In this document: one piece after another, positions 1 to 23,196 of the stretch | Layout of the letters: each line of letters starts with the position of its first letter | How positions within the stretch are numbered: the first letter of the stretch is position 1 | Source of the DNA: Mycoplasma wenyonii | GTDB taxonomy: Bacteria > Bacillota_I > Bacilli_A > Mycoplasmatales > Mycoplasmoidaceae | NCBI RefSeq assembly: GCF_003265155.1 | Contig: NZ_QKVO01000002.1 | Span: forward strand, 1 to 24,000 | Direction of reading: 5' to 3' | DNA: 24,000 nt | The notes under the pieces: model-generated | What the model was told of the DNA's origin: nothing | Seen by the model: the letters and a program-made list of their open reading frames with translations, nothing else | The model's database searches: none | Program-made: the position numbers and the translations under genes

Positions 1-494
1 CAAAAGGAAGACGACAATGTGATATAGAAATCGAGGGCGAGAAAAGATTTATTCTAGAGATTCATCCCTCCCTATCCTTTAAGAGTGATGTGAAAGCTGG
101 GATAGCATCTGATGATCTCTATTTAAAGGGCCGAGGTTATGTTGGTAATGAGTCTGTTAATTTTGAGGAGACAATTCTTGGGAGAGGTCACAGAAGTGGA
201 GGTGAAAATCGTTGACAGTTAAAGGTATTTAAATCCGGAACAACTAGGCTTGGTGAACTTAGTGGTGGTGAGGGGATAGATTATGGTGATGACGACATTG
301 AGTGTGGTAAGGACTGATTTATAGTTGAGAAACCTACTTATGAAGGGGAAGGGGATTGAGAAAAAGCTGTTTCAAAGGTTACTTTTAAGCTGGCAAACTG
401 TACTGATATAGCAAAAGGTAGAAAAGAATGTGAGATAAAAATCGCGAAAGAAAAATTTATTTTGAAGAAGAAAATCTCTTTCTTAAGCCTTTAA
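1..494 (+). CDS. Repeat-module protein, 5'-partial (end of module 0, linker, module 1); frame 3, TAA at 492-494
   Basis: Table-4 translation is open from the window edge: ..KGRRQCDIEIEGEKRFILEIHPSLSFKSDVKAGIASDDLYLKGRGYVGNESVNFEETILGRGHRSGGENRWQLKVFKSGTTRLGELSGGEGIDYGDDDIECGKDWFIVEKPTYEGEGDWEKAVSKVTFKLANCTDIAKGRKECEIKIAKEKFILKKKISFLSL*. In-frame TGA at 213, 315, 357. Confidence 0.6.
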
Positions 495-501
495 GAGTGG
501 T

Positions 502-915
502 GTGGGGGAAGGAGAACCTAAGGAGGGAGAAGTGCAAGATCTCTATTTAAGAGGTGAAGGTTATGATTCCGAGGGCAAGGCAATTGATTTTGATGAAAAG
601 ATTGTTTGGGCGGGGCACGGCTCTGGGAGAGGTGAGCTTCGTTGACAATTGACAGTTTATGAGTCCGGAAATTTTAAGTTAGGTGAGCTTGGTGGAGGGG
701 ATGGAATGAATGCTCCTGATGACAAAATTAACTGTGATAGGAAAGGAATATTTGAAGAGAATGGAGAAGAGGGATGATTTGGGGGAGCTGATCAATGAGA
801 AAAAGCTGTTAATTCAATTAAGTTCAAGCTCACTAATTGTGGGAACGCTGGAGGAAGACGACGATGTGATATAGAAATCTCGGAAGTAAAAAATTTACTA
901 ATTAAAAGATACTAG
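502..915 (+). CDS. Repeat-module ORF (module 2); frame 1 opens at 487, first canonical start GTG 502, TAG at 913-915; possibly a silent cassette rather than an independent gene
   Basis: AFKSGVGEGEPKEGEVQDLYLRGEGYDSEGKAIDFDEKIVWAGHGSGRGELRWQLTVYESGNFKLGELGGGDGMNAPDDKINCDRKGIFEENGEEGWFGGADQWEKAVNSIKFKLTNCGNAGGRRRCDIEISEVKNLLIKRY*. Homology to the other modules begins upstream of the GTG. Confidence 0.45.
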
Positions 916-1314
916 TCTTCTCTAGCCTTTAAGAGTGAGTGGTCAGGGATAGCACAAAATGATCTCTATTTAAAAGGCCTAAGTACTAAGACTGGGGCTG
1001 AAGTTAATTGGGATGAGAAAGTTGAATTCGGGGTAGGGGGTACTAACAAATGACAATTGAGTGTCATTGAAAATGGTGAGACCGAAATAATTGACCTAGG
1101 TGAAGCTTCAACAGGTTGAGGGGAAGCAGAAACATTTAATTGTGACCCGCAGAACGTCTTTAAAGTTACACAGCCAACTTATGGGCGGGAGACCTGAGAG
1201 GGGAAGAAATGAGTAAGGAGTGCTTCAAAAATCAAGTTCAAACTCGCTGATAATTGTACTAAAACGAAAGGAAGAGTAGAGTGTGATATAGAAATCGCGA
1301 GCGGGGAAATTTAA
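916..1314 (+). pseudogene. Repeat-module ORF (module 3), same frame as module 2 directly after the TAG; no ATG/GTG/TTG near its 5' end; TAA at 1312-1314
   Basis: SSLAFKSEWSGIAQNDLYLKGLSTKTGAEVNWDEKVEFGVGGTNKWQLSVIENGETEIIDLGEASTGWGEAETFNCDPQNVFKVTQPTYGRETWEGKKWVRSASKIKFKLADNCTKTKGRVECDIEIASGEI*. Only ATA (949) or TTA (970) could act as table-4 starts. Confidence 0.4.
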
Positions 1315-1324
1315 TTTATTTAAT

Positions 1325-1768
1325 TTGAAAAATCCATCTCTTCTAGCCTTTAAGAGTGGTGTGCAAGATGAAGCTCCTAGTGATGGAGAGAAAGATGATC
1401 TCTATTTAAAAGGCTTAGGTTATGCTGGCGGGGAGAGAGTTGATTTTGATGAGACTTACGAAGAGGAAGGGGGTGATGGGGAAAAGAGAACGCACCTTTG
1501 ACAATTGATTGTTTTTAAAGATACAGGGACGACTAAGGCGCAGACTATTCATAGTGGATTGGATTGGGGTGGTCGCGACGATGAACAGGGGACTTGTGAT
1601 AAGGGCTGGTTTGAAGTTGAAAAGCCTAAATTTGGAAGTACGGATATGTGACAAGAAGCTGTTGCAAAAGTGAGGTTCAAGCTAAGTAAATGTAGTAATG
1701 CGGGAGGTAGAAGAGAATGTGATATAGAAATCGCGGATTCAGTTGGATTAAAAGAATCTAGTTCCTAA
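1325..1768 (+). CDS. Repeat-module ORF (module 4, last unit); frame 2 opens at 1292, TTG 1325 is the first canonical start, TAA at 1766-1768
   Basis: ..KFNLFNLKNPSLLAFKSGVQDEAPSDGEKDDLYLKGLGYAGGERVDFDETYEEEGGDGEKRTHLWQLIVFKDTGTTKAQTIHSGLDWGGRDDEQGTCDKGWFEVEKPKFGSTDMWQEAVAKVRFKLSKCSNAGGRRECDIEIADSVGLKESSS*. Confidence 0.45.
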
Positions 1769-1775
1769 ATAATTA

Positions 1776-2344
1776 CTATCTCAAATAACCTATTTTTCAT
1801 AAAGAGGTTTTGTATTTATCTTTAGTCATCTCACTTCCAGTCATCTTTTTAACTACTAGATTACAAGTGGTTCCAGTTCCGCAAGGCAATTGACCCACAC
1901 ATTCAGATGTTCCTTTTTTCTTACAGAATGTAATCTCAGGCTTAGAATCACTTGACTTAGTCAATTTCAAAAGACCTAAAGGTCCTGAATTACCAGCCAT
2001 ATACCACAATTTCTTTGTATCTTTATCAGTTATATAAATTTTTCTACTAGTATCTTTATCTATTATTTCTTGAGGAAATTCAACTAATTTTTCATTGCTA
2101 GAGCTACTAGAAGAAGTAATACTAGCTAAAGATACTCATAAATTACAGATTCATATGTCTGTTCCTTGTTTATTTGCCGTTAAGCCACAAACTCACTCAC
2201 CATCACTAACTTTTTTTCTAAAAGTACTTTTAAAATCTCAAGAAGGATCAGTAAATCTAGATATTATGTAACCAGTTCCTATGCCCCCCCCGCAATAGCA
2301 GTTACAGCCACAGATGAAGAAAAAGCAAATAACTTAGAAACCAT
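1776..2344 (-). CDS. Signal-peptide/membrane-anchored Cys-containing protein, frameshifted at a G8 tract (phase OFF as sequenced); ~189 aa if the tract had 9 (or 6) G
   Basis: ATG at 2344 preceded by AGGAA. MVSKLFAFSSSVAVTAIAGGA then TAG with 8 G. The +1 frame is open (table 4) for all ~169 codons from the tract to TAG 1776-1778, and the first ~95 of these precede any ATG/GTG/TTG: ..GIGTGYIISRFTDPSWDFKSTFRKKVSDGEWVCGLTANKQGTDIWICNLWVSLASITSSSSSSNEKLVEFPQEIIDKDTSRKIYITDKDTKKLWYMAGNSGPLGLLKLTKSSDSKPEITFCKKKGTSECVGQLPCGTGTTCNLVVKKMTGSEMTKDKYKTSLWKIGYLR*. Confidence 0.6.
2284..2291 (-). repeat. Homopolymer C8 (+ strand) = G8 on the coding strand, codons 18-21 of the 1776-2344 gene; candidate slipped-strand phase-variation tract
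   Basis: Read directly: atg ccccccc|c gcaat at 2281-2295. It sits at the end of the signal-peptide coding segment, and a 1-nt length change restores the long ORF. Confidence 0.6.
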
Positions 2345-2436
2345 TTACTGGTTTCCTAGTTGCTGAAAAGAATTACCTAAATTTTATTTTTGAATTAACT
2401 ACTCTACAACTCTTTACCTAAGTACTCACAAAAGAT

Positions 2437-3024
2437 CTAAATTAAGAAGATTGCTTTAGGTTTAAAGTTAGGCTTTCATCCTAATCCAACTTCCTTAGAG
2501 ATATTTATCTCACATTCTTCTTTTCCCGATATCTCCTTACAGTTATCCAAAGTTAACTTAATCTTGTTAAATCCTTTATCAAAATGTTTATCTGCCTCCT
2601 TTGTTACTTCCAATACATCTTCATTACAAAATAGATTCTGATCATCATAGTTGTCTTCACCCATCCCTCCACTTAATGGAGCTATTCTTACTTTCTTTGA
2701 TACAGGAAAAATGGATAGTTCTCATGATGAATCTCTTGCTGTAATAATGTCTTCTAAACCAACATCTGTCTGTCTTTGTTGATCAAATCCTTTCCAATGT
2801 AGTTCTTTCTTTCCATCAGCCCCTAACTTGTAAATCAAAGACACATCAATAACATTAGAGCCAACGCTCTTGCAAGTAAGAATGGGAAGAGAAACTTGCC
2901 CTGCCCCTTCAAACACAAATGTGCCACGATCTACTTTCTTCCCCTTCATTAACTCATAAGCTACAGGAAGCCCACAACCAACACACACAGCCCCTCCTGC
3001 CATCAACAGCTTAGGAAGAAACAA
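2437..3024 (-). CDS. Secreted or membrane-anchored paralogue of the cassette module (195 aa), N-terminal hydrophobic signal with non-canonical lipobox-like AVCVGC
   Basis: TTG start 3024 (alternative ATG 3003). MFLPKLLMAGGAVCVGCGLPVAYELMKGKKVDRGTFVFEGAGQVSLPILTCKSVGSNVIDVSLIYKLGADGKKELHWKGFDQQRQTDVGLEDIITARDSSWELSIFPVSKKVRIAPLSGGMGEDNYDDQNLFCNEDVLEVTKEADKHFDKGFNKIKLTLDNCKEISGKEECEINISKEVGLGWKPNFKPKAIFLI*. It aligns to the array module along its whole length (ILTCKS/SLAFKS, SWEL/RWQL, LSGG.G, DD..C, KL.L.NC....ECEI.I). Two in-frame TGA; TAG at 2437-2439. Confidence 0.75.
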
Positions 3025-3066
3025 AACTAACTCTTGACTTTAAAAGTTAAACCTTAAATATCTTAA

Positions 3067-19803: not shown

Positions 19804-20664
19804 CTACTTCTTATTAACTAACTGAGAGATATTCTCTATAAGTTCTTCTTCTGATGAGCTAGAAGATAATCCCAGTGAATGTTTTTCCCTTAAAGCTCTC
19901 TCCAATTGAGAAATAAAAGGAGGGCTTAAAGACAATTCTGAAAAAAAAGAAGCTGGAAGACTAAATAACTCCTTAGTGCTTTTTAAATGGGACACAATCT
20001 TTCCATTCTTAAAGACAATAATCTCATCTGCCTGTAAAAGTTCCTCCATATCGTGAGTTATAGAAATAACTGTTTTTTGATAGTCAACTACCAGCTTCTT
20101 CATTAACTTAGTTATCTCTACCTTCTCCACTGGAGAGAGCATGGAACAAGACTCATCAAATAGAAATAATGAAGGATTTAAGGCTAAAGTAGAGGCTATA
20201 GTAACTTTTTGCTTCTCTCCTCCAGAAAGATTCACTGGAGACTTATCTCTTAAATTGTGTAGATCTAAGGAATCTATAAGATTTTCTACTATTTTCTTCA
20301 TAAAAGGATTAGGAACTTTCTTGTTTTCTAGTCCAAAGGCCAGTTCCTCCTCTATAGAAGAAGTAATAAATTGGCTATCAGGATTTTGAAAGACTACTCC
20401 TAAATAGGAAAAAATCTTTTGATAGCTCATTTCTGAAATAGGCCTGTCGAATATCTTGATTACTCCTGAATCTGGTTTCAATAATCCTGTTAGTAACTTA
20501 GAAAAGGTAGACTTTCCGGATCCATTATGACCTACAATACAGTAGTATTTAGACTCTGGAAGTGAAAGGGAGAGATTGGTAATGAACTTCTGTCCCTTTA
20601 CATGAGAAAAAAAGAGTTTCTCGACAACTAAAGCGAACTTGGTTTTCTTCTCCTCTTTTTCCAT
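19804..20664 (-). CDS. ecfA1: ECF transporter ATPase subunit EcfA1 (286 aa)
   Basis: Walker A GHNGSGKST, EcfA1-type Q-loop region VVFQNPDSQF, signature LSGGEKQKV, Walker B LFLFDES, H-loop ITHD. Confidence 0.93.
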   Translation of the reverse strand: MEKEEKKTKFALVVEKLFFSHVKGQKFITNLSLSLPESKYYCIVGHNGSGKSTFSKLLTGLLKPDSGVIKIFDRPISEMSYQKIFSYLGVVFQNPDSQFITSSIEEELAFGLENKKVPNPFMKKIVENLIDSLDLHNLRDKSPVNLSGGEKQKVTIASTLALNPSLFLFDESCSMLSPVEKVEITKLMKKLVVDYQKTVISITHDMEELLQADEIIVFKNGKIVSHLKSTKELFSLPASFFSELSLSPPFISQLERALREKHSLGLSSSSSEEELIENISQLVNKK

Positions 20665-20936
20665 TAGTTAAGTGGAGTTGCAGGAATAGAGGACTGACTC
20701 TCTTTCTTTTGTTCTTTTTCGTGTTGTAATTTAAGTCTTAGGAATCTAATTGCATAGACTATAGCAATAATGAGTGCAAATCCTGCAGCTTGTCAAAAGC
20801 TTTGAGTTATTGCCAAAACAATAAATATAACTATTAAGAAGGTTCAAAGTATTATTGCAAAGATCTTTCTAACAATATATCTAACACACTTGAGTGCAAA
20901 ACCACTGACAGCCTTTCCATCTCATTTAAGTGACAT
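20664..20936 (-). CDS. Small hypothetical membrane protein (90 aa, about 2 TM) inserted between ecfT and ecfA1
   Basis: ATG 20936. MSLKWDGKAVSGFALKCVRYIVRKIFAIILWTFLIVIFIVLAITQSFWQAAGFALIIAIVYAIRFLRLKLQHEKEQKKESQSSIPATPLN. Its TAA overlaps the ecfA1 ATG (TAATG). 3 in-frame TGA. Confidence 0.5.
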
Positions 20937-20960
20937 TTCAAGTTCTAATTACCTATTTTT

Positions 20961-22202
20961 TTAAGTTGCTACTAATAACAAAGGATCTATAGGGCCAAAA
21001 CAAGAAATATAAGAAGAAGAAAATACAAAGTAAAAGCAAATAGTTATAAATACGATAGTGGCTCCAAATAAACCTAGGCTTAAGTAATTAATTGAATAAG
21101 TTCTATAGCTAGTTCTTCCAGCTTTAGGGAGATAAGCTCTCGAAATCATTGCATTCGCAAGCTCTCTAGACTTAATCATTGAAATAATAAATAGAGGTAT
21201 AAATAGAGAAAGAAAAGCAGAGGCCTTATCTCTTAATCTTCCATTCTTAAAGTCAATACCCCTACTTGATTGTGCCTTTACTATTCTCAATGTTTCGACT
21301 AATAATGAAGGAATAAATCTTATTGCTAATGAAATAACTAAAGTAATTTCCTTAACAGGTATCTTTAAGAACTTAAGTGGTCTAATTAATTGACCTATTG
21401 CAAAAGTAAATGAAGTTAAGTCAGTAGTGTGACTTAATGCACTTGACAACGCAATCATCATTACTAACTTGTTAGACATATTGAAAGCTAATAAGAATTG
21501 AAATAGAGTTACTGTATATCACTTAGGAATAAACCCTGCTATCTTCTTCCCACTAGCACTGGTTACATAAAAAGTCTTAAGTCCCTTTAAGTGGTTTTTT
21601 AAGGTACAACAATTAATTCCAGTGGTATCCTTGCAACAATCTGCTTTATTTTGCTGTGCGCACTCACAAGCTTTCTTTAATTCTTCCACACTATTTGCTG
21701 AAAAGATTTCAGAGCCCCCAGATCCCTTTGCACACTTACAACATCCTGTTCCTGTTTTGGCTGAACAGTGCTTTACAACCTCCCCTCCTAGTTGCCACCC
21801 AACTTCTATATTTGAGGTGCCATTCCCAGAACTAGAAGAATTTTGTCTCCCCCTAAAGCTAAAGGGAGAGATAGATCCTAAATCTGAATAAGCAGATGTC
21901 AAGTAGTTCTTGTCCCAAAATCCAGGATTTTTATTAAATATTCAATTAACAGTAAAAAGAAATAAATATATTCCTACATACAAGCAAAGTAATTTCTTAT
22001 ACAGTAAAGCAAAGCTCCCAGAAAAATAGAGAATTAATAAGGTAAAAGCAAGTAGTAATAAATGAAGTAATATTCCAATCTTGGAAAAGATTAGAAAAGT
22101 TAAGAGTATAAAGGCTATTAGCTTTAATACAGGATGAGCGGAAGGAACCGAAGCCCCTAACCCACCTATACTCTTAGTGGTTAGACGACTGTTAACTAAA
22201 AT
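20961..22202 (-). CDS. ecfT: ECF transporter transmembrane subunit EcfT (~413 aa) carrying a large Cys-rich insertion; probable ATT start
   Basis: Track ORFs 20961-21479 and 21519-21902 are in the same frame (= 2 mod 3), joined by TGA. N-terminus SIGGLGASVPSAHPVLKLIAFILL resembles EcfT G.Y.P..S..H.LDPR.KL. C-terminal half has IRFIPSLLVETLRIVKAQSSRGIDF (EcfT coupling-helix motif). The frame opens after TAG 22209-22211. Confidence 0.85.
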
Positions 22203-23082
22203 TTTTGACTAAATTATCTATAGACTCGGCGAGTTCCAATATATTTCTAGGTTGATATTCTCAAAGTCTTTCAAAGTAAGCATTAAAGGCAGATAACTTC
22301 TCAATAAAACTAATTACCTTAGGCTTAATTAATTCTTTTGGACAATTTCTGAAGAATGAATAAGTTGGTTGGGTTTTTTGCAACCTTCCTTCATTCAGAA
22401 AAAGAGTTGTATCCGTACTTTCAAATATGAAATCCATATTACTAGAAACCAAGATAATAGTTACTTTTTTCTTTTTAAGCTCCTTCACTAGCTCTAAGAC
22501 TTGCTCTGTGGATTGGGGATCAAGCCCCAAAGTAGGTTCATCAAAAACAATCACCTTTGGCTCAAGAATTAGTATTCCTGCTAAAGTAACTTTTCTCTTT
22601 TGACCTCCAGATAGCTTAAAGGGAGAAGAATTAACTAGTTCAAGTGGGAATGACAACTCTGAAAGTATGGCCTTTGCTTTTTCTTCTCATCTTGGAAGTT
22701 CATACTTTTGAAGATTAAAGAGAATCTTGGGACCAAAGATTATGTCTTGAAGAACAGTTTCCTTAAAAAGTTGATACTCAGGAAGTTGAAAGACTATTCC
22801 AACCTCTCTCCTGATAGCCTTATAATTTTTTAGTTTTGAGTTAAAAAAAAGAATCTTCTCTCCACTAGCATAATAAATGTTGGCTGTCTCAGATCTATGC
22901 AATCCATTTAGGTGTTCACAAAAAACACTCTTTCCAGAACCACTGGGGCCAACAATTCCATAAACTTCACCTTTCCGAAATTTAAAGGAAAAAGAATATA
23001 GTACCCTCTGACCTTTAAAAGTAGAACTTAGATTATGTACTTCAAGAGCATTAGTAGATTCAATTGTGTGATTTAGTGCAAT
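22192..23082 (-). CDS. ecfA2: ECF transporter ATPase subunit EcfA2 (~296 aa); non-canonical (ATT) start
   Basis: Walker A GPSGSGKS, EcfA2-type VFQLPEYQLFKETV, LSGGQKRKV, VIVFDEPT. The track stop at 22261 is TGA; the true stop is TAA 22192-22194. In-frame TAA lies at 23089-23091, with no ATG/GTG/TTG before the Walker A. Confidence 0.9.
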
Positions 23083-23196
23083 TTTTTTTTATATCTATAT
23101 TCTGCTAACCTATCCTTATTCAAATAGATAGCTAAACTGTCTATTCTCTTCATTTGGGAGGCTAATTTTACTCTTTGATTTTAGAGCAATTTTTTA

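What the first reader, a model, noticed from the sequence alone, without database searches (positions are those of the whole stretch)
21519..21945. ~115-aa insertion with a 10-cysteine cluster inside the ECF T component
EcfT here is about 413 aa, against the roughly 265 aa typical of the family. The extra sequence is a single block between the N-terminal TM helices and the conserved central and C-terminal part. It reads NWIFNKNPGFWDKNYLTSAYSDLGSISPFSFRGRQNSSSSGNGTSNIEVGWQLGGEVVKHCSAKTGTGCCKCAKGSGGSEIFSANSVEELKKACECAQQNKADCCKDTTGINCCTLKNHLKGLK.. Ten Cys fall within 54 codons (21606-21767), including three CC pairs and a C.C pair. The block is in frame, with no TAA/TAG. Cys-dense segments are unusual in Mollicutes proteins. 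The pattern suggests metal binding or a disulfide knot, grafted onto a core transporter scaffold subunit. Together with the Cys-containing module family at 1-3024, this hints that the organism uses Cys-stabilised exposed domains.
Basis: partly seen in the sequence, partly recalled or inferred. Interest (0 to 1): 0.65.

Follow-up and report, generated by a model that had tools for sequence, protein, structure and literature searches.

The report
Cysteine-rich outer loop in hemoplasma EcfT
A blood-dwelling mycoplasma carries a 138-residue outward-facing loop with ten cysteines in the scaffold subunit of its vitamin importer; the long loop is normal for mycoplasmas, but the cysteine cluster, most likely five disulfide bridges, occurs only in one hemoplasma lineage and has not been described.

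Summary
Read with TGA=Trp, 20961-22208(-) is one intact EcfT gene of about 413 aa. It holds a 138-aa block (21522-21935) with 10 Cys in 54 codons (21606-21767), against a background of 0.9% Cys (P~5e-11).

The block is not a unique graft. It replaces the 13-residue TMH3-TMH4 loop of solved EcfT structures, and that loop faces outward. The same loop is already long across Mollicutes: 21-63 aa in Spiroplasma and Mycoplasmopsis, and 87-156 aa in Mycoplasmoides, Ureaplasma and hemoplasmas.

Only the cysteines are special. Eight suis-group hemoplasma orthologues have 10,10,10,10,10,10,10,11 Cys in the loop. The haemofelis group has 4, 2 and 0, a further Cys-free lineage (P0009) has 0, and other mollicutes have 0-2. 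Eight Cys columns are fixed. A further pair sits at different positions in different sub-clades.

Outward location, even counts and paired gain or loss favour about five disulfides stabilising an exposed cap domain over metal binding. The block is under purifying selection (dN/dS 0.15). It has no homologue outside hemoplasma EcfT and no confident fold.

It is unrelated to the module family at 1-3039. The function of the cap is inferred, not shown.

The parts
20961..22202 (-). ecfT gene (ECF transporter T component). The likely start is ATT at 22202, the stop is TAA at 20961-20963, and the product is about 413 aa.
   Evidence: Table-4 ORF. Pfam CbiQ scores 69.7 bits against a cut-off of 25. The profile matches the solved EcfT structures 4HZU, 4HUQ and 5D3M at E 5e-59. 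Orthologues in M. wenyonii, M. ovis, M. suis and others are 57-76% identical, per the hit table.
21936..22127 (-). TMH1-TMH3 (residues 28-91), the N-terminal membrane helices.
   Evidence: Hydropathy profile. The region aligns to 4HZU_T residues 6-87. dN/dS is 0.06 against relative L029, so it is translated even though no canonical start precedes it.
21522..21935 (-). Expanded TMH3-TMH4 loop (138 aa, residues 92-229), inferred to be extracellular.
   Evidence: It replaces residues 88-100 of 4HZU_T. The N-terminal end of TMH3 faces the cytoplasm in ECF-FolT2 (PMC4820897).
21912..21935 (-). NKNPGFWD motif at the outer end of TMH3. The core FNKNPGFW is invariant in the eight sequences of alignment A2.
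   Evidence: Invariant columns F89-W96 in alignment A2. A degenerate form, [YK]-x-[ST/D]-P-G, is present in Mycoplasmoides and Ureaplasma.
21801..21911 (-). Ser/Gly/Asn-rich variable linker.
   Evidence: Length and sequence vary between orthologues. AF2 pLDDT is below 50.
21783..21800 (-). GWxxGG motif preceding the Cys block.
   Evidence: G135, G139 and G140 are invariant. The motif is also present in the Cys-free relatives P0009, P0015-P0017 and, as LWG or YGG, in Ureaplasma and M. cavipharyngis.
21606..21767 (-). Cys-rich block with 10 Cys in 54 codons (C148, C156, C157, C159, C181, C183, C191, C192, C200, C201).
   Evidence: Positions. Eight Cys columns are fixed in the suis group and one pair floats. 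All 10 are conserved against L029, with 3 synonymous TGT/TGC changes, while 17 of the 55 residues counted (147-201) differ.
21651..21692 (-). Conserved helix SVEELKKACECAQQ inside the block.
   Evidence: Predicted as helix in both AF2 runs. The E-L-K-K signature is also kept in Cys-free relatives, for example IEELKKLEKY in P0017 and SAKELASA in P0009.
21522..21581 (-). Beta-hairpin LKTFYVTSASGKKIAGFIPK leading into TMH4.
   Evidence: This is the best-predicted part of the loop, with pLDDT about 70. G and K are conserved, and the hairpin is present in all long-loop mollicute EcfTs.
21126..21521 (-). TMH4 plus the coupling helices CH1-CH3, with the two conserved Arg motifs (AQSSRGIDF at 21249-21275 and AMISRAY at 21132-21152).
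   Evidence: Invariant columns R314 and R355. The region aligns to 4HZU_T residues 101-262.
22192..23088 (-). ecfA2-type ATPase gene. Its stop codon overlaps the start of ecfT.
   Evidence: NCBIfam ECF_ATPase_2 at 223.7 bits, higher than ECF_ATPase_1 at 151 bits.
19804..20664 (-). ecfA1-type ATPase gene, downstream of ecfT.
   Evidence: NCBIfam ECF_ATPase_1 at 263.3 bits. The same gene order occurs in Ca. M. haemominutum and Ca. M. haemolamae.

Best explanation
Identity. The gene is the orthologous EcfT (T component) of the single shared ECF vitamin-uptake module of a suis-group hemotropic mycoplasma.

Location. The block is the TMH3-TMH4 loop. It lies on the outer face of the membrane, directly above the two EcfT helices that contact the substrate-binding S component.

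History. Across Mollicutes this loop has grown into a small domain: a motif at the outer end of TMH3, a linker, strand(s), a helix, and a beta-hairpin into TMH4. In the suis-group hemoplasmas (M. suis, M. wenyonii, M. ovis, Ca. M. haemominutum, Ca. M. haemolamae and this organism) the segments around the helix acquired cysteines. Eight are fixed and one further pair varies in position.

Mechanism. I infer that these form about five intradomain disulfides, which rigidify and protect an exposed cap domain in oxidising blood plasma.

Function (inferred, not shown). The cap acts as a structural or regulatory lid over the S-component docking groove, influencing docking and exchange of S components. 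It is not a metal site.
For: EcfT identity:
- Pfam CbiQ match.
- Profile match to 4HZU, 4HUQ and 5D3M on both sides of the block.
- Conserved Arg motifs.
- Adjacent ECF ATPases of type 2 and type 1.

Outward location:
- The block replaces the TMH3-TMH4 loop.
- In ECF-FolT2 the N-terminal end of TMH3 points to the cytoplasm, and TMH4 is followed by the cytoplasmic coupling helices (PMC4820897).
- K/R-rich N-terminus and a YKK TM2-3 loop fit the positive-inside rule.

Loop expansion is ancestral:
- Loop lengths are 11-12 aa in Bacilli, 21-63 aa in Spiroplasma, Mycoplasmopsis and related groups, and 87-156 aa in Mycoplasmoides, Ureaplasma and hemoplasmas, with shared motifs.

Disulfide signature:
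- Loop Cys counts are 10,10,10,10,10,10,10,11 in the suis group, 4, 2 and 0 in the haemofelis group, and 0 in P0009.
- Eight Cys columns are fixed. The extra pair sits at columns 82+139 in the window clade, 73+77/81 in suis and P0007, and 93+112 in haemominutum.
- An even-number bias is an accepted indicator of disulfide formation in exported proteins (PMC2823432).

Selection:
- Against L029, dN/dS is 0.15 in the Cys block, 0.17 for the whole loop and 0.04 for the core.
- None of the 17 substitutions among the 55 residues counted (147-201) hits a Cys (P=0.016), and three Cys codons changed synonymously.

Not an artefact:
- The same intact frame occurs in eight independent genomes or assemblies.
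Against: - No disulfide has been observed. The connectivity is unknown, and both AF2 models are low confidence (pLDDT 58.8 and 54.5).
- Ca. M. haemolamae has 11 Cys, an odd number.
- CC and C-x-C motifs with Lys, Gly and Ser between them also resemble metallothioneins.
- Mollicutes are not known to have Dsb-type oxidases, and Firmicutes generally exclude Cys from exported proteins (PMC2823432). Oxidation would therefore have to be spontaneous or host-driven.
- The proposed role in S-component docking rests only on position in homologous structures.
- The orthologues are related, so the repeated count of 10 is not eight independent observations. Only three or four independent relocations of the extra pair support pairing.
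Confidence: 0.62

Rival explanations
1. The Cys cluster is a metallothionein-like thiolate site on the outer face of EcfT. It would capture or buffer a metal such as Zn, Cu, Co or Ni for the cell.
For: The block has a dense CC / C-x-C pattern with Lys, Gly and Ser spacers. The family is historically annotated 'cobalt' or 'metal ion' permease, for example P0015 and P0003. Eight Cys columns are strictly conserved.
Against: No metallothionein or other metal-binding Pfam family matches, even at E<=1. The location is extracellular and therefore oxidising. Counts are even, and the variable Cys relocate as pairs; a thiolate cluster does not require that. No His or Asp co-ligands are conserved. The operon lacks CbiM/N-type metal S components, and mycoplasma ECF modules are regarded as group II vitamin modules (PMC8566771). 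The cobalt-CbiQ equivalog model is far below its cut-off, at 31.8 against 111.8 bits.
Confidence: 0.12
2. The disulfide-rich cap is mainly a host-facing surface module, such as an adhesin, immune decoy or receptor for a host carrier protein. It would not be a part of the transport mechanism.
For: The block is exposed on a wall-less cell that lives attached to erythrocytes. It is restricted to one blood-dwelling clade. The loop evolves about four times faster than the core, with dN/dS 0.17 against 0.04.
Against: dN/dS of 0.15-0.17 still indicates purifying selection, not diversifying selection. The underlying loop domain is shared with non-blood mycoplasmas and ureaplasmas. There is no homology to any known adhesin or other protein among 1.84 billion representatives.
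Confidence: 0.15
3. The loop is cytoplasmic, either through reversed local topology or a re-entrant segment. In that case the Cys would bind Zn or an Fe-S cluster.
For: Cys clusters in the bacterial cytoplasm usually bind metals. The loop is Lys-rich.
Against: The flanking helices align to TMH3 and TMH4 of solved EcfTs, and a single TM helix separates the loop from the cytoplasmic coupling helices. There is no CxxC...CxxC zinc-ribbon spacing or Fe-S spacing. Pfam gives no match.
Confidence: 0.03
4. The block is an assembly or frameshift artefact, or the gene is a pseudogene, so the block is not part of a functional polypeptide.
For: There is no ATG, GTG or TTG start before codon 76. Gene callers give truncated products of 340, 370, 330 and 273 aa.
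Against: The frame is continuous, and the same architecture occurs in eight genomes. dN/dS is 0.066 for codons 1-75 and 0.15 for the Cys block. No repeats are present.
Confidence: 0.01

Closest known systems
EcfT of Lactobacillus brevis / L. delbrueckii (PDB 4HUQ, 4HZU, 5D3M)
   Same: Same family and architecture: TMH1-3, TMH4, coupling helices with two Arg motifs, and TMH5. The profile E-value is 5e-59. It is also partnered with EcfA and EcfA' ATPases.
   Different: The solved proteins are 265-280 aa with a TMH3-TMH4 loop of about 13 residues. Here that loop is 138 aa with 10 Cys. The conserved TMH3 proline (P71) described for L. delbrueckii is not evident in this protein. The gene order is A2-T-(small ORF)-A1 instead of A1-A2-T.
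EcfT of Mycoplasmoides / Ureaplasma (for example M. amphoriforme 427 aa, M. gallisepticum 389 aa, M. testudinis 405 aa, Ureaplasma spp. 361-423 aa)
   Same: The loop is expanded at the same site, to 95-156 aa. The motifs are related: [YK]xxPG at the end of TMH3, a G/W-G-G strand, a helix, and a hairpin before TMH4.
   Different: These loops contain 0-2 Cys. Outside the motifs there is no detectable sequence similarity to the Cys block, and phmmer with the loop alone finds only the hemoplasma cluster.
EcfT of haemofelis-group hemoplasmas (M. haemofelis P0015, Ca. M. haematohominis P0016) and of the Cys-free lineage P0009
   Same: They share the NK[NST]PGFW, GWFxGG and [PA]-WYT motifs and the same loop scaffold.
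   Different: The loops are shorter, at 86-117 aa, with 4, 2, 0 or 0 Cys. P0009 also keeps the canonical operon order A1-A2-T.
MalF P2 loop of the E. coli maltose ABC importer (own knowledge, not tested here)
   Same: It is a large lineage-specific extracytoplasmic domain inserted between TM3 and TM4 of a core ABC-importer membrane subunit. It sits above the translocation and docking site and contacts the substrate-binding partner.
   Different: It belongs to an unrelated fold and transporter type, has no Cys cluster, and its partner is a soluble binding protein rather than a membrane S component.
Metallothioneins / bacterial SmtA (own knowledge; Pfam scan)
   Same: High Cys density with CC and C-x-C motifs and small or basic spacer residues.
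   Different: Metallothioneins are cytoplasmic, their Cys number has no parity constraint, and there is no Pfam match. Here the setting is extracellular and Cys are gained and lost in pairs.

Membership tests
EcfT / CbiQ family (Pfam PF02361), T component of ECF transporters | Match to the family HMM above the gathering score | tested here: met
   CbiQ scores 69.7 bits against a cut-off of 25, covering residues 228-364.
EcfT / CbiQ family (Pfam PF02361), T component of ECF transporters | Five TM helices plus coupling helices, collinear with solved EcfT | tested here: met
   The profile aligns 4HZU_T residues 6-87 and 101-262 on either side of the loop. Hydropathy agrees.
EcfT / CbiQ family (Pfam PF02361), T component of ECF transporters | Two conserved Arg-containing motifs at the ends of the coupling helices | tested here: met
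   AQSSRGIDF and AMISRAY are present, and R314 and R355 are invariant or nearly so in 15 sequences.
EcfT / CbiQ family (Pfam PF02361), T component of ECF transporters | Encoded with two ECF-type ATPases | tested here: met
   An ECF_ATPase_2-like gene lies upstream and an ECF_ATPase_1-like gene downstream. The order is permuted but conserved in hemoplasmas.
Cobalt-specific CbiQ (NCBIfam TIGR02454 equivalog, group I ECF) | Score above the equivalog cut-off, and an operon with CbiM/CbiN | tested here: not met
   The score is 31.8 bits against a cut-off of 111.8. No CbiM/N-like gene lies next to the operon.
Disulfide-rich extracytoplasmic domain (generic class) | Located outside the cytoplasm | tested here: met
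   Shown by homology mapping to the TMH3-TMH4 loop of solved EcfT. This is an inference from homology, not an experiment.
Disulfide-rich extracytoplasmic domain (generic class) | Even number of Cys, with Cys gained and lost in pairs | tested here: met
   Counts are 10 in seven sequences, 11 in one, then 4, 2, 0 and 0. The variable pair relocates between sub-clades.
Disulfide-rich extracytoplasmic domain (generic class) | Disulfide bonds actually formed | not testable with these tools
   This needs non-reducing/reducing MS or a structure. The AF2 models are too poor.
Named Cys-rich folds (EGF, granulin, knottin, hydrophobin and others) | Sequence or fold match | tested here: not met
   No Pfam hit at E<=1 apart from a chance Peptidase_C27 match below its cut-off. 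No Foldseek PDB hit with E<1. No homologue outside hemoplasma EcfT.
Metallothionein-like metal-binding cluster | Family HMM match, reducing compartment, metal-thiolate cluster | tested here: not met
   There is no HMM match and the topology is outward. Metal binding itself cannot be tested here.

The most novel reading that the evidence does not exclude
Suis-group hemoplasmas may have broken the Firmicute rule of excluding cysteine from exported proteins. On this reading they rely on the oxidising host plasma, without any Dsb machinery, to fold a five-disulfide ectodomain built into an essential transporter scaffold. That ectodomain would be a functional accessory of ECF transport, for example gating S-component docking or receiving vitamins from host carrier proteins. 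It would be the first extracellular functional domain described for any EcfT.
Probability: 0.15. Interest if true: 0.65.

Novelty: new variant of a known kind. Interest (0 to 1): 0.4.

Why it matters
EcfT is treated as a compact, purely membrane and cytoplasmic scaffold. All solved structures have a minimal TMH3-TMH4 loop, and mechanistic models of S-component toppling and exchange ignore the outer face.

This analysis shows that Mollicutes systematically enlarge that loop. One blood-dwelling lineage turns it into what looks like a multi-disulfide ectodomain, placed directly above the helices that contact S components.

If functional, it would be a surface-exposed, conserved, essential-protein epitope in uncultivable veterinary pathogens (M. 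suis, M. wenyonii, M. ovis). It would also be a natural test of how extracellular elements affect ECF transport, and an exception to cysteine exclusion in the Firmicute lineage.

If it is merely a stabilised spacer, it is a lineage-specific decoration of limited general interest.

Tried and rejected
- Table-11 reading: rejected. The ORFs are fragmented, whereas table 4 gives long ORFs.
- Profile search with the Cys-block alignment A4 against 5.8 billion proteins: no hit at all, not even the source EcfTs. This is probably a word-index or composition-filter limitation, so I relied on the exhaustive phmmer search instead. That search found only the hemoplasma EcfT cluster.
- AF2 of the window protein in its annotated form (P0001) with 13 homologues: pLDDT 58.8. 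AF2 of the loop alone with 11 homologues: pLDDT 54.5. Both are too poor for fold or disulfide inference. A Foldseek PDB search with the loop model found nothing at E<1.
- The full table-4 protein could not be submitted to AF2, because TGA=Trp is not recognised as a window sequence.
- Homology between the loop and the Cys-containing module family at 1-3039: none.
- Tandem-repeat or low-complexity DNA origin: none. The higher GC of the block (40-44% against ~30% in flanks) is explained by its Gly/Ala/Cys/Ser codons and is not evidence of transfer.
- The genome-contig scan returned only two hemoplasmas and the metagenome scan none. DNA for M. wenyonii could not be fetched and M. ovis DNA was not looked up, so start-codon comparison was limited to L029, L001, L002 and L030.
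- Literature searches (EcfT + hemoplasma; EcfT + Mycoplasma; M. suis + cysteine/disulfide): no description of this loop.

Full report
**1. What is in the sequence**

The window is from a Mollicute that reads TGA as Trp. Table 4 raises the longest ORF from 356 to 1445 aa. The GC content is 34%.

On the minus strand, 20961-22208 is one uninterrupted frame of 415 codons.

Ten Cys codons lie between 21767 and 21606, which is 54 codons. They form three CC pairs and two C-x-C pairs. Other long genes in the window contain 0.88% Cys, so at least 10 in 54 has a binomial P of 5e-11. There is no tandem repeat.

**2. What the gene is**

- Pfam CbiQ matches residues 228-364 at 69.7 bits against a cut-off of 25.
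- A profile of the orthologues matches the solved EcfT chains 4HZU_T, 4HUQ_T and 5D3M_D at E 5e-59 to 6e-53. It does so in two pieces: 4HZU_T residues 6-87 before the block and 101-262 after it.
- The two Arg motifs of the coupling helices (AQSSRGIDF and AMISRAY) are invariant.
- The flanking genes are ECF ATPases, type 2 upstream and type 1 downstream.

This is therefore the T component of a group-II-style shared ECF module. The cobalt-specific CbiQ equivalog is far below its cut-off, at 31.8 against 111.8 bits.

The closest named relatives are M. ovis (76% identity), M. wenyonii (74%), Ca. M. haemominutum and M. suis (60% each) and Ca. M. haemolamae (57%), all. The organism is therefore a suis-group hemotropic mycoplasma.

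**3. Where the block sits**

The block replaces the roughly 13-residue TMH3-TMH4 loop of the solved EcfTs.

In L. delbrueckii ECF-FolT2, EcfT has TMH1-5 plus the cytoplasmic coupling helices CH1-3. The N-terminal end of TMH3 points to the cytoplasm, and TMH3 and TMH4 contact loops L1 and L3 and helix H5 of the S component (PMC4820897). The outer end of TMH3 and the extracellular side of EcfT are flexible when no S component is bound (PMC10368641).

By homology the loop is therefore extracellular and sits directly above the S-component docking groove. The K/R-rich N-terminus and the YKK TM2-TM3 turn agree with this orientation. This step is an inference from homology, not an experiment.

**4. 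The long loop is not unusual for this order**

I extracted EcfT ORFs from 27 genomes and aligned them. The TMH3-TMH4 loop lengths are:

| Group | Loop length (aa) |
|---|---|
| Bacilli MAGs and a canonical 265-aa EcfT | 11-12 |
| Spiroplasma, Mycoplasmopsis, Metamycoplasma, Williamsoniiplasma | 21-63 |
| Mycoplasmoides, Ureaplasma and hemoplasmas | 87-156 |

The long loops share several elements: a [YKN]-K/R-x-P-G motif at the end of TMH3, a G-W/L-x-G-G strand, a helix, and a beta-hairpin running into TMH4.

A length of 413 aa is therefore ordinary for this clade.

**5. What is special: the cysteines**

| Lineage | Loop Cys count |
|---|---|
| Window | 10 |
| M. wenyonii | 10 |
| M. ovis | 10 |
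| P0004 / L029 | 10 |
| Ca. M. haemominutum | 10 |
| M. suis | 10 |
| P0007 | 10 |
| Ca. M. haemolamae | 11 |
| M. haemofelis | 4 |
| Ca. M. haematohominis | 2 |
| P0017 | 0 |
| P0009 | 0 |
| All other mollicutes examined | 0-2 |

Within the suis group eight Cys columns are fixed. The remaining pair occupies different columns in different sub-clades:

- columns 82 and 139 in the window, wenyonii, ovis and P0004 clade;
- columns 73 and 77/81 in M. suis and P0007;
- columns 93 and 112 in Ca. M. haemominutum;
- three extra Cys in Ca. M. haemolamae.

The total stays even while positions move in pairs, and the segment is extracytoplasmic. This is the classical signature of disulfides; even-number bias is used as an indicator of disulfide formation in exported proteins (PMC2823432). 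A thiolate metal cluster imposes no parity constraint.

**6. Selection**

I compared the window with the closest relative whose DNA I could fetch (L029, 87% aa identity), using Nei-Gojobori dN/dS:

| Region | dN/dS |
|---|---|
| TMH4 to C-terminus (core) | 0.043 |
| N-terminus and TMH1-3 | 0.059 |
| Cys block | 0.15 |
| Whole loop | 0.17 |

The loop is constrained, but about four times less than the core, and it is not diversifying. All ten Cys are kept, three of them with synonymous TGT/TGC changes, while 17 of the 55 residues counted in the block (147-201) differ. The chance that none of those substitutions hits a Cys is P=0.016.

**7. Uniqueness**

An exhaustive phmmer search with the 140-aa loop against 1.84 billion cluster representatives finds only the hemoplasma EcfT cluster. 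Pfam finds nothing credible.

The AF2 models are poor, with pLDDT 58.8 for the window protein as annotated (P0001, 340 aa) and 54.5 for the loop alone. Foldseek finds nothing with E<1. The only consistently predicted elements are the helix at SVEELKKACEC and the terminal hairpin. The fold and the disulfide connectivity remain unknown.

**8. Interpretation**

Best-supported reading (confidence about 0.6): an ancestral mollicute EcfT ectodomain that acquired about five disulfides in the suis-group hemoplasmas. Their likely role is to stabilise an exposed cap in oxidising plasma.

The function of the cap is not shown. I favour a structural or regulatory lid over the S-component docking site, because the loop connects the two helices that touch the S component and because its membrane-proximal motif (FNKNPGFW) is invariant in the eight sequences of alignment A2.

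Rivals:

- Outward metal-binding cluster: 0.12.
- Host-interaction module: 0.15. This is not exclusive of the main reading.
- Cytoplasmic metal site: 0.03.
- Artefact or pseudogene: 0.01.

**9.

The module family at 1-3039 has three conserved Cys per module and no similarity to the loop. It is not the same element.

It is true that these putative surface proteins carry 2-6% Cys, against 0.9% in housekeeping genes. The broader idea that this organism tolerates Cys in exposed proteins is therefore worth a genome-wide test.

**10. Novelty**

The proteins have been in public databases since about 2011 and are annotated as EcfT or cobalt permease. I found no paper describing the loop or its cysteines. 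I rate it a new variant of a known kind, with moderate interest.

Noticed in passing
window 22190-22215 (-); L029 2560-2590: ecfT has no canonical start codon. The codon aligned with the ATG of M. suis and Ca. M. haemominutum is ATT here and ATG in L029, and in both it is immediately followed by TAG. The open frame then begins S-K-I(ATT)-L(TTA), and no ATG, GTG or TTG appears until codon 76. Codons 1-75 still have dN/dS 0.066, so initiation at ATT 22202, coupled to the ecfA2 stop at 22192-22194, is likely. Gene callers give truncated products of 340, 370, 330 and 273 aa.
   Followed up: partly
window 19804-23088 (-); L001, L002, L029, L030: The ECF operon order is ecfA2 - ecfT - small ORF - ecfA1. 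The canonical order ecfA1-ecfA2-ecfT is seen in L028 (P0009) and in human mycoplasmas (MG179-181, MPN193-195). The permuted order is conserved in Ca. M. haemominutum, Ca. M. haemolamae and L029; the short contig L030 shows only ecfA2-ecfT.
   Followed up: partly
window 20664-20936 (-): An unannotated 90-aa ORF with two hydrophobic helices (MSLKWDGKAV...IPATPLN) lies between ecfT and ecfA1. It is 81% identical in L029, where a gene is called, and 33% identical in Ca. M. haemominutum (L001 5335-5520). It may be a small membrane subunit or a regulator of the ECF module.
   Followed up: partly
window 1-1768 (+) and 2437-3039 (-): This is a paralogous module family of about 130-160 aa per module (DLYLKG ... 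W-Q-L ... F-K-L ... C-[DE]-I-E-I) with three conserved Cys per module. Four modules follow each other on the + strand in different frames (3-494, 487-915, 916-1314, 1292-1768). That suggests either a frameshifted multi-module gene or tandem paralogues. A fifth copy on the - strand has an N-terminal hydrophobic anchor.
   Followed up: partly
window 1776-2333 (-): This 185-codon ORF has 11 Cys (5.9%). Six of them lie in a hydrophobic N-terminal stretch, VICFFFICGCNCYCGGG. It is the second most Cys-dense frame in the window, and its function is unknown.
   Followed up: no
L028 (Logan SRR27853839 contig, 94.8 kb, GC 27.7%): A hemoplasma-like lineage (P0009; 39-42% identical to the window EcfT, 43% to M. 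haemofelis). It keeps the NKNPGFW, GWFIGG and PKWYT motifs but has an 86-87-aa Cys-free loop and the canonical operon order. It is a useful outgroup for dating the Cys acquisition.
   Followed up: partly
alignment A4 /: The profile search with the Cys-block alignment returned no hit at all, not even the EcfT proteins it was built from. The single-sequence exhaustive search did recover them. Negative results from the word-indexed search on Cys-rich queries should not be trusted.
   Followed up: yes
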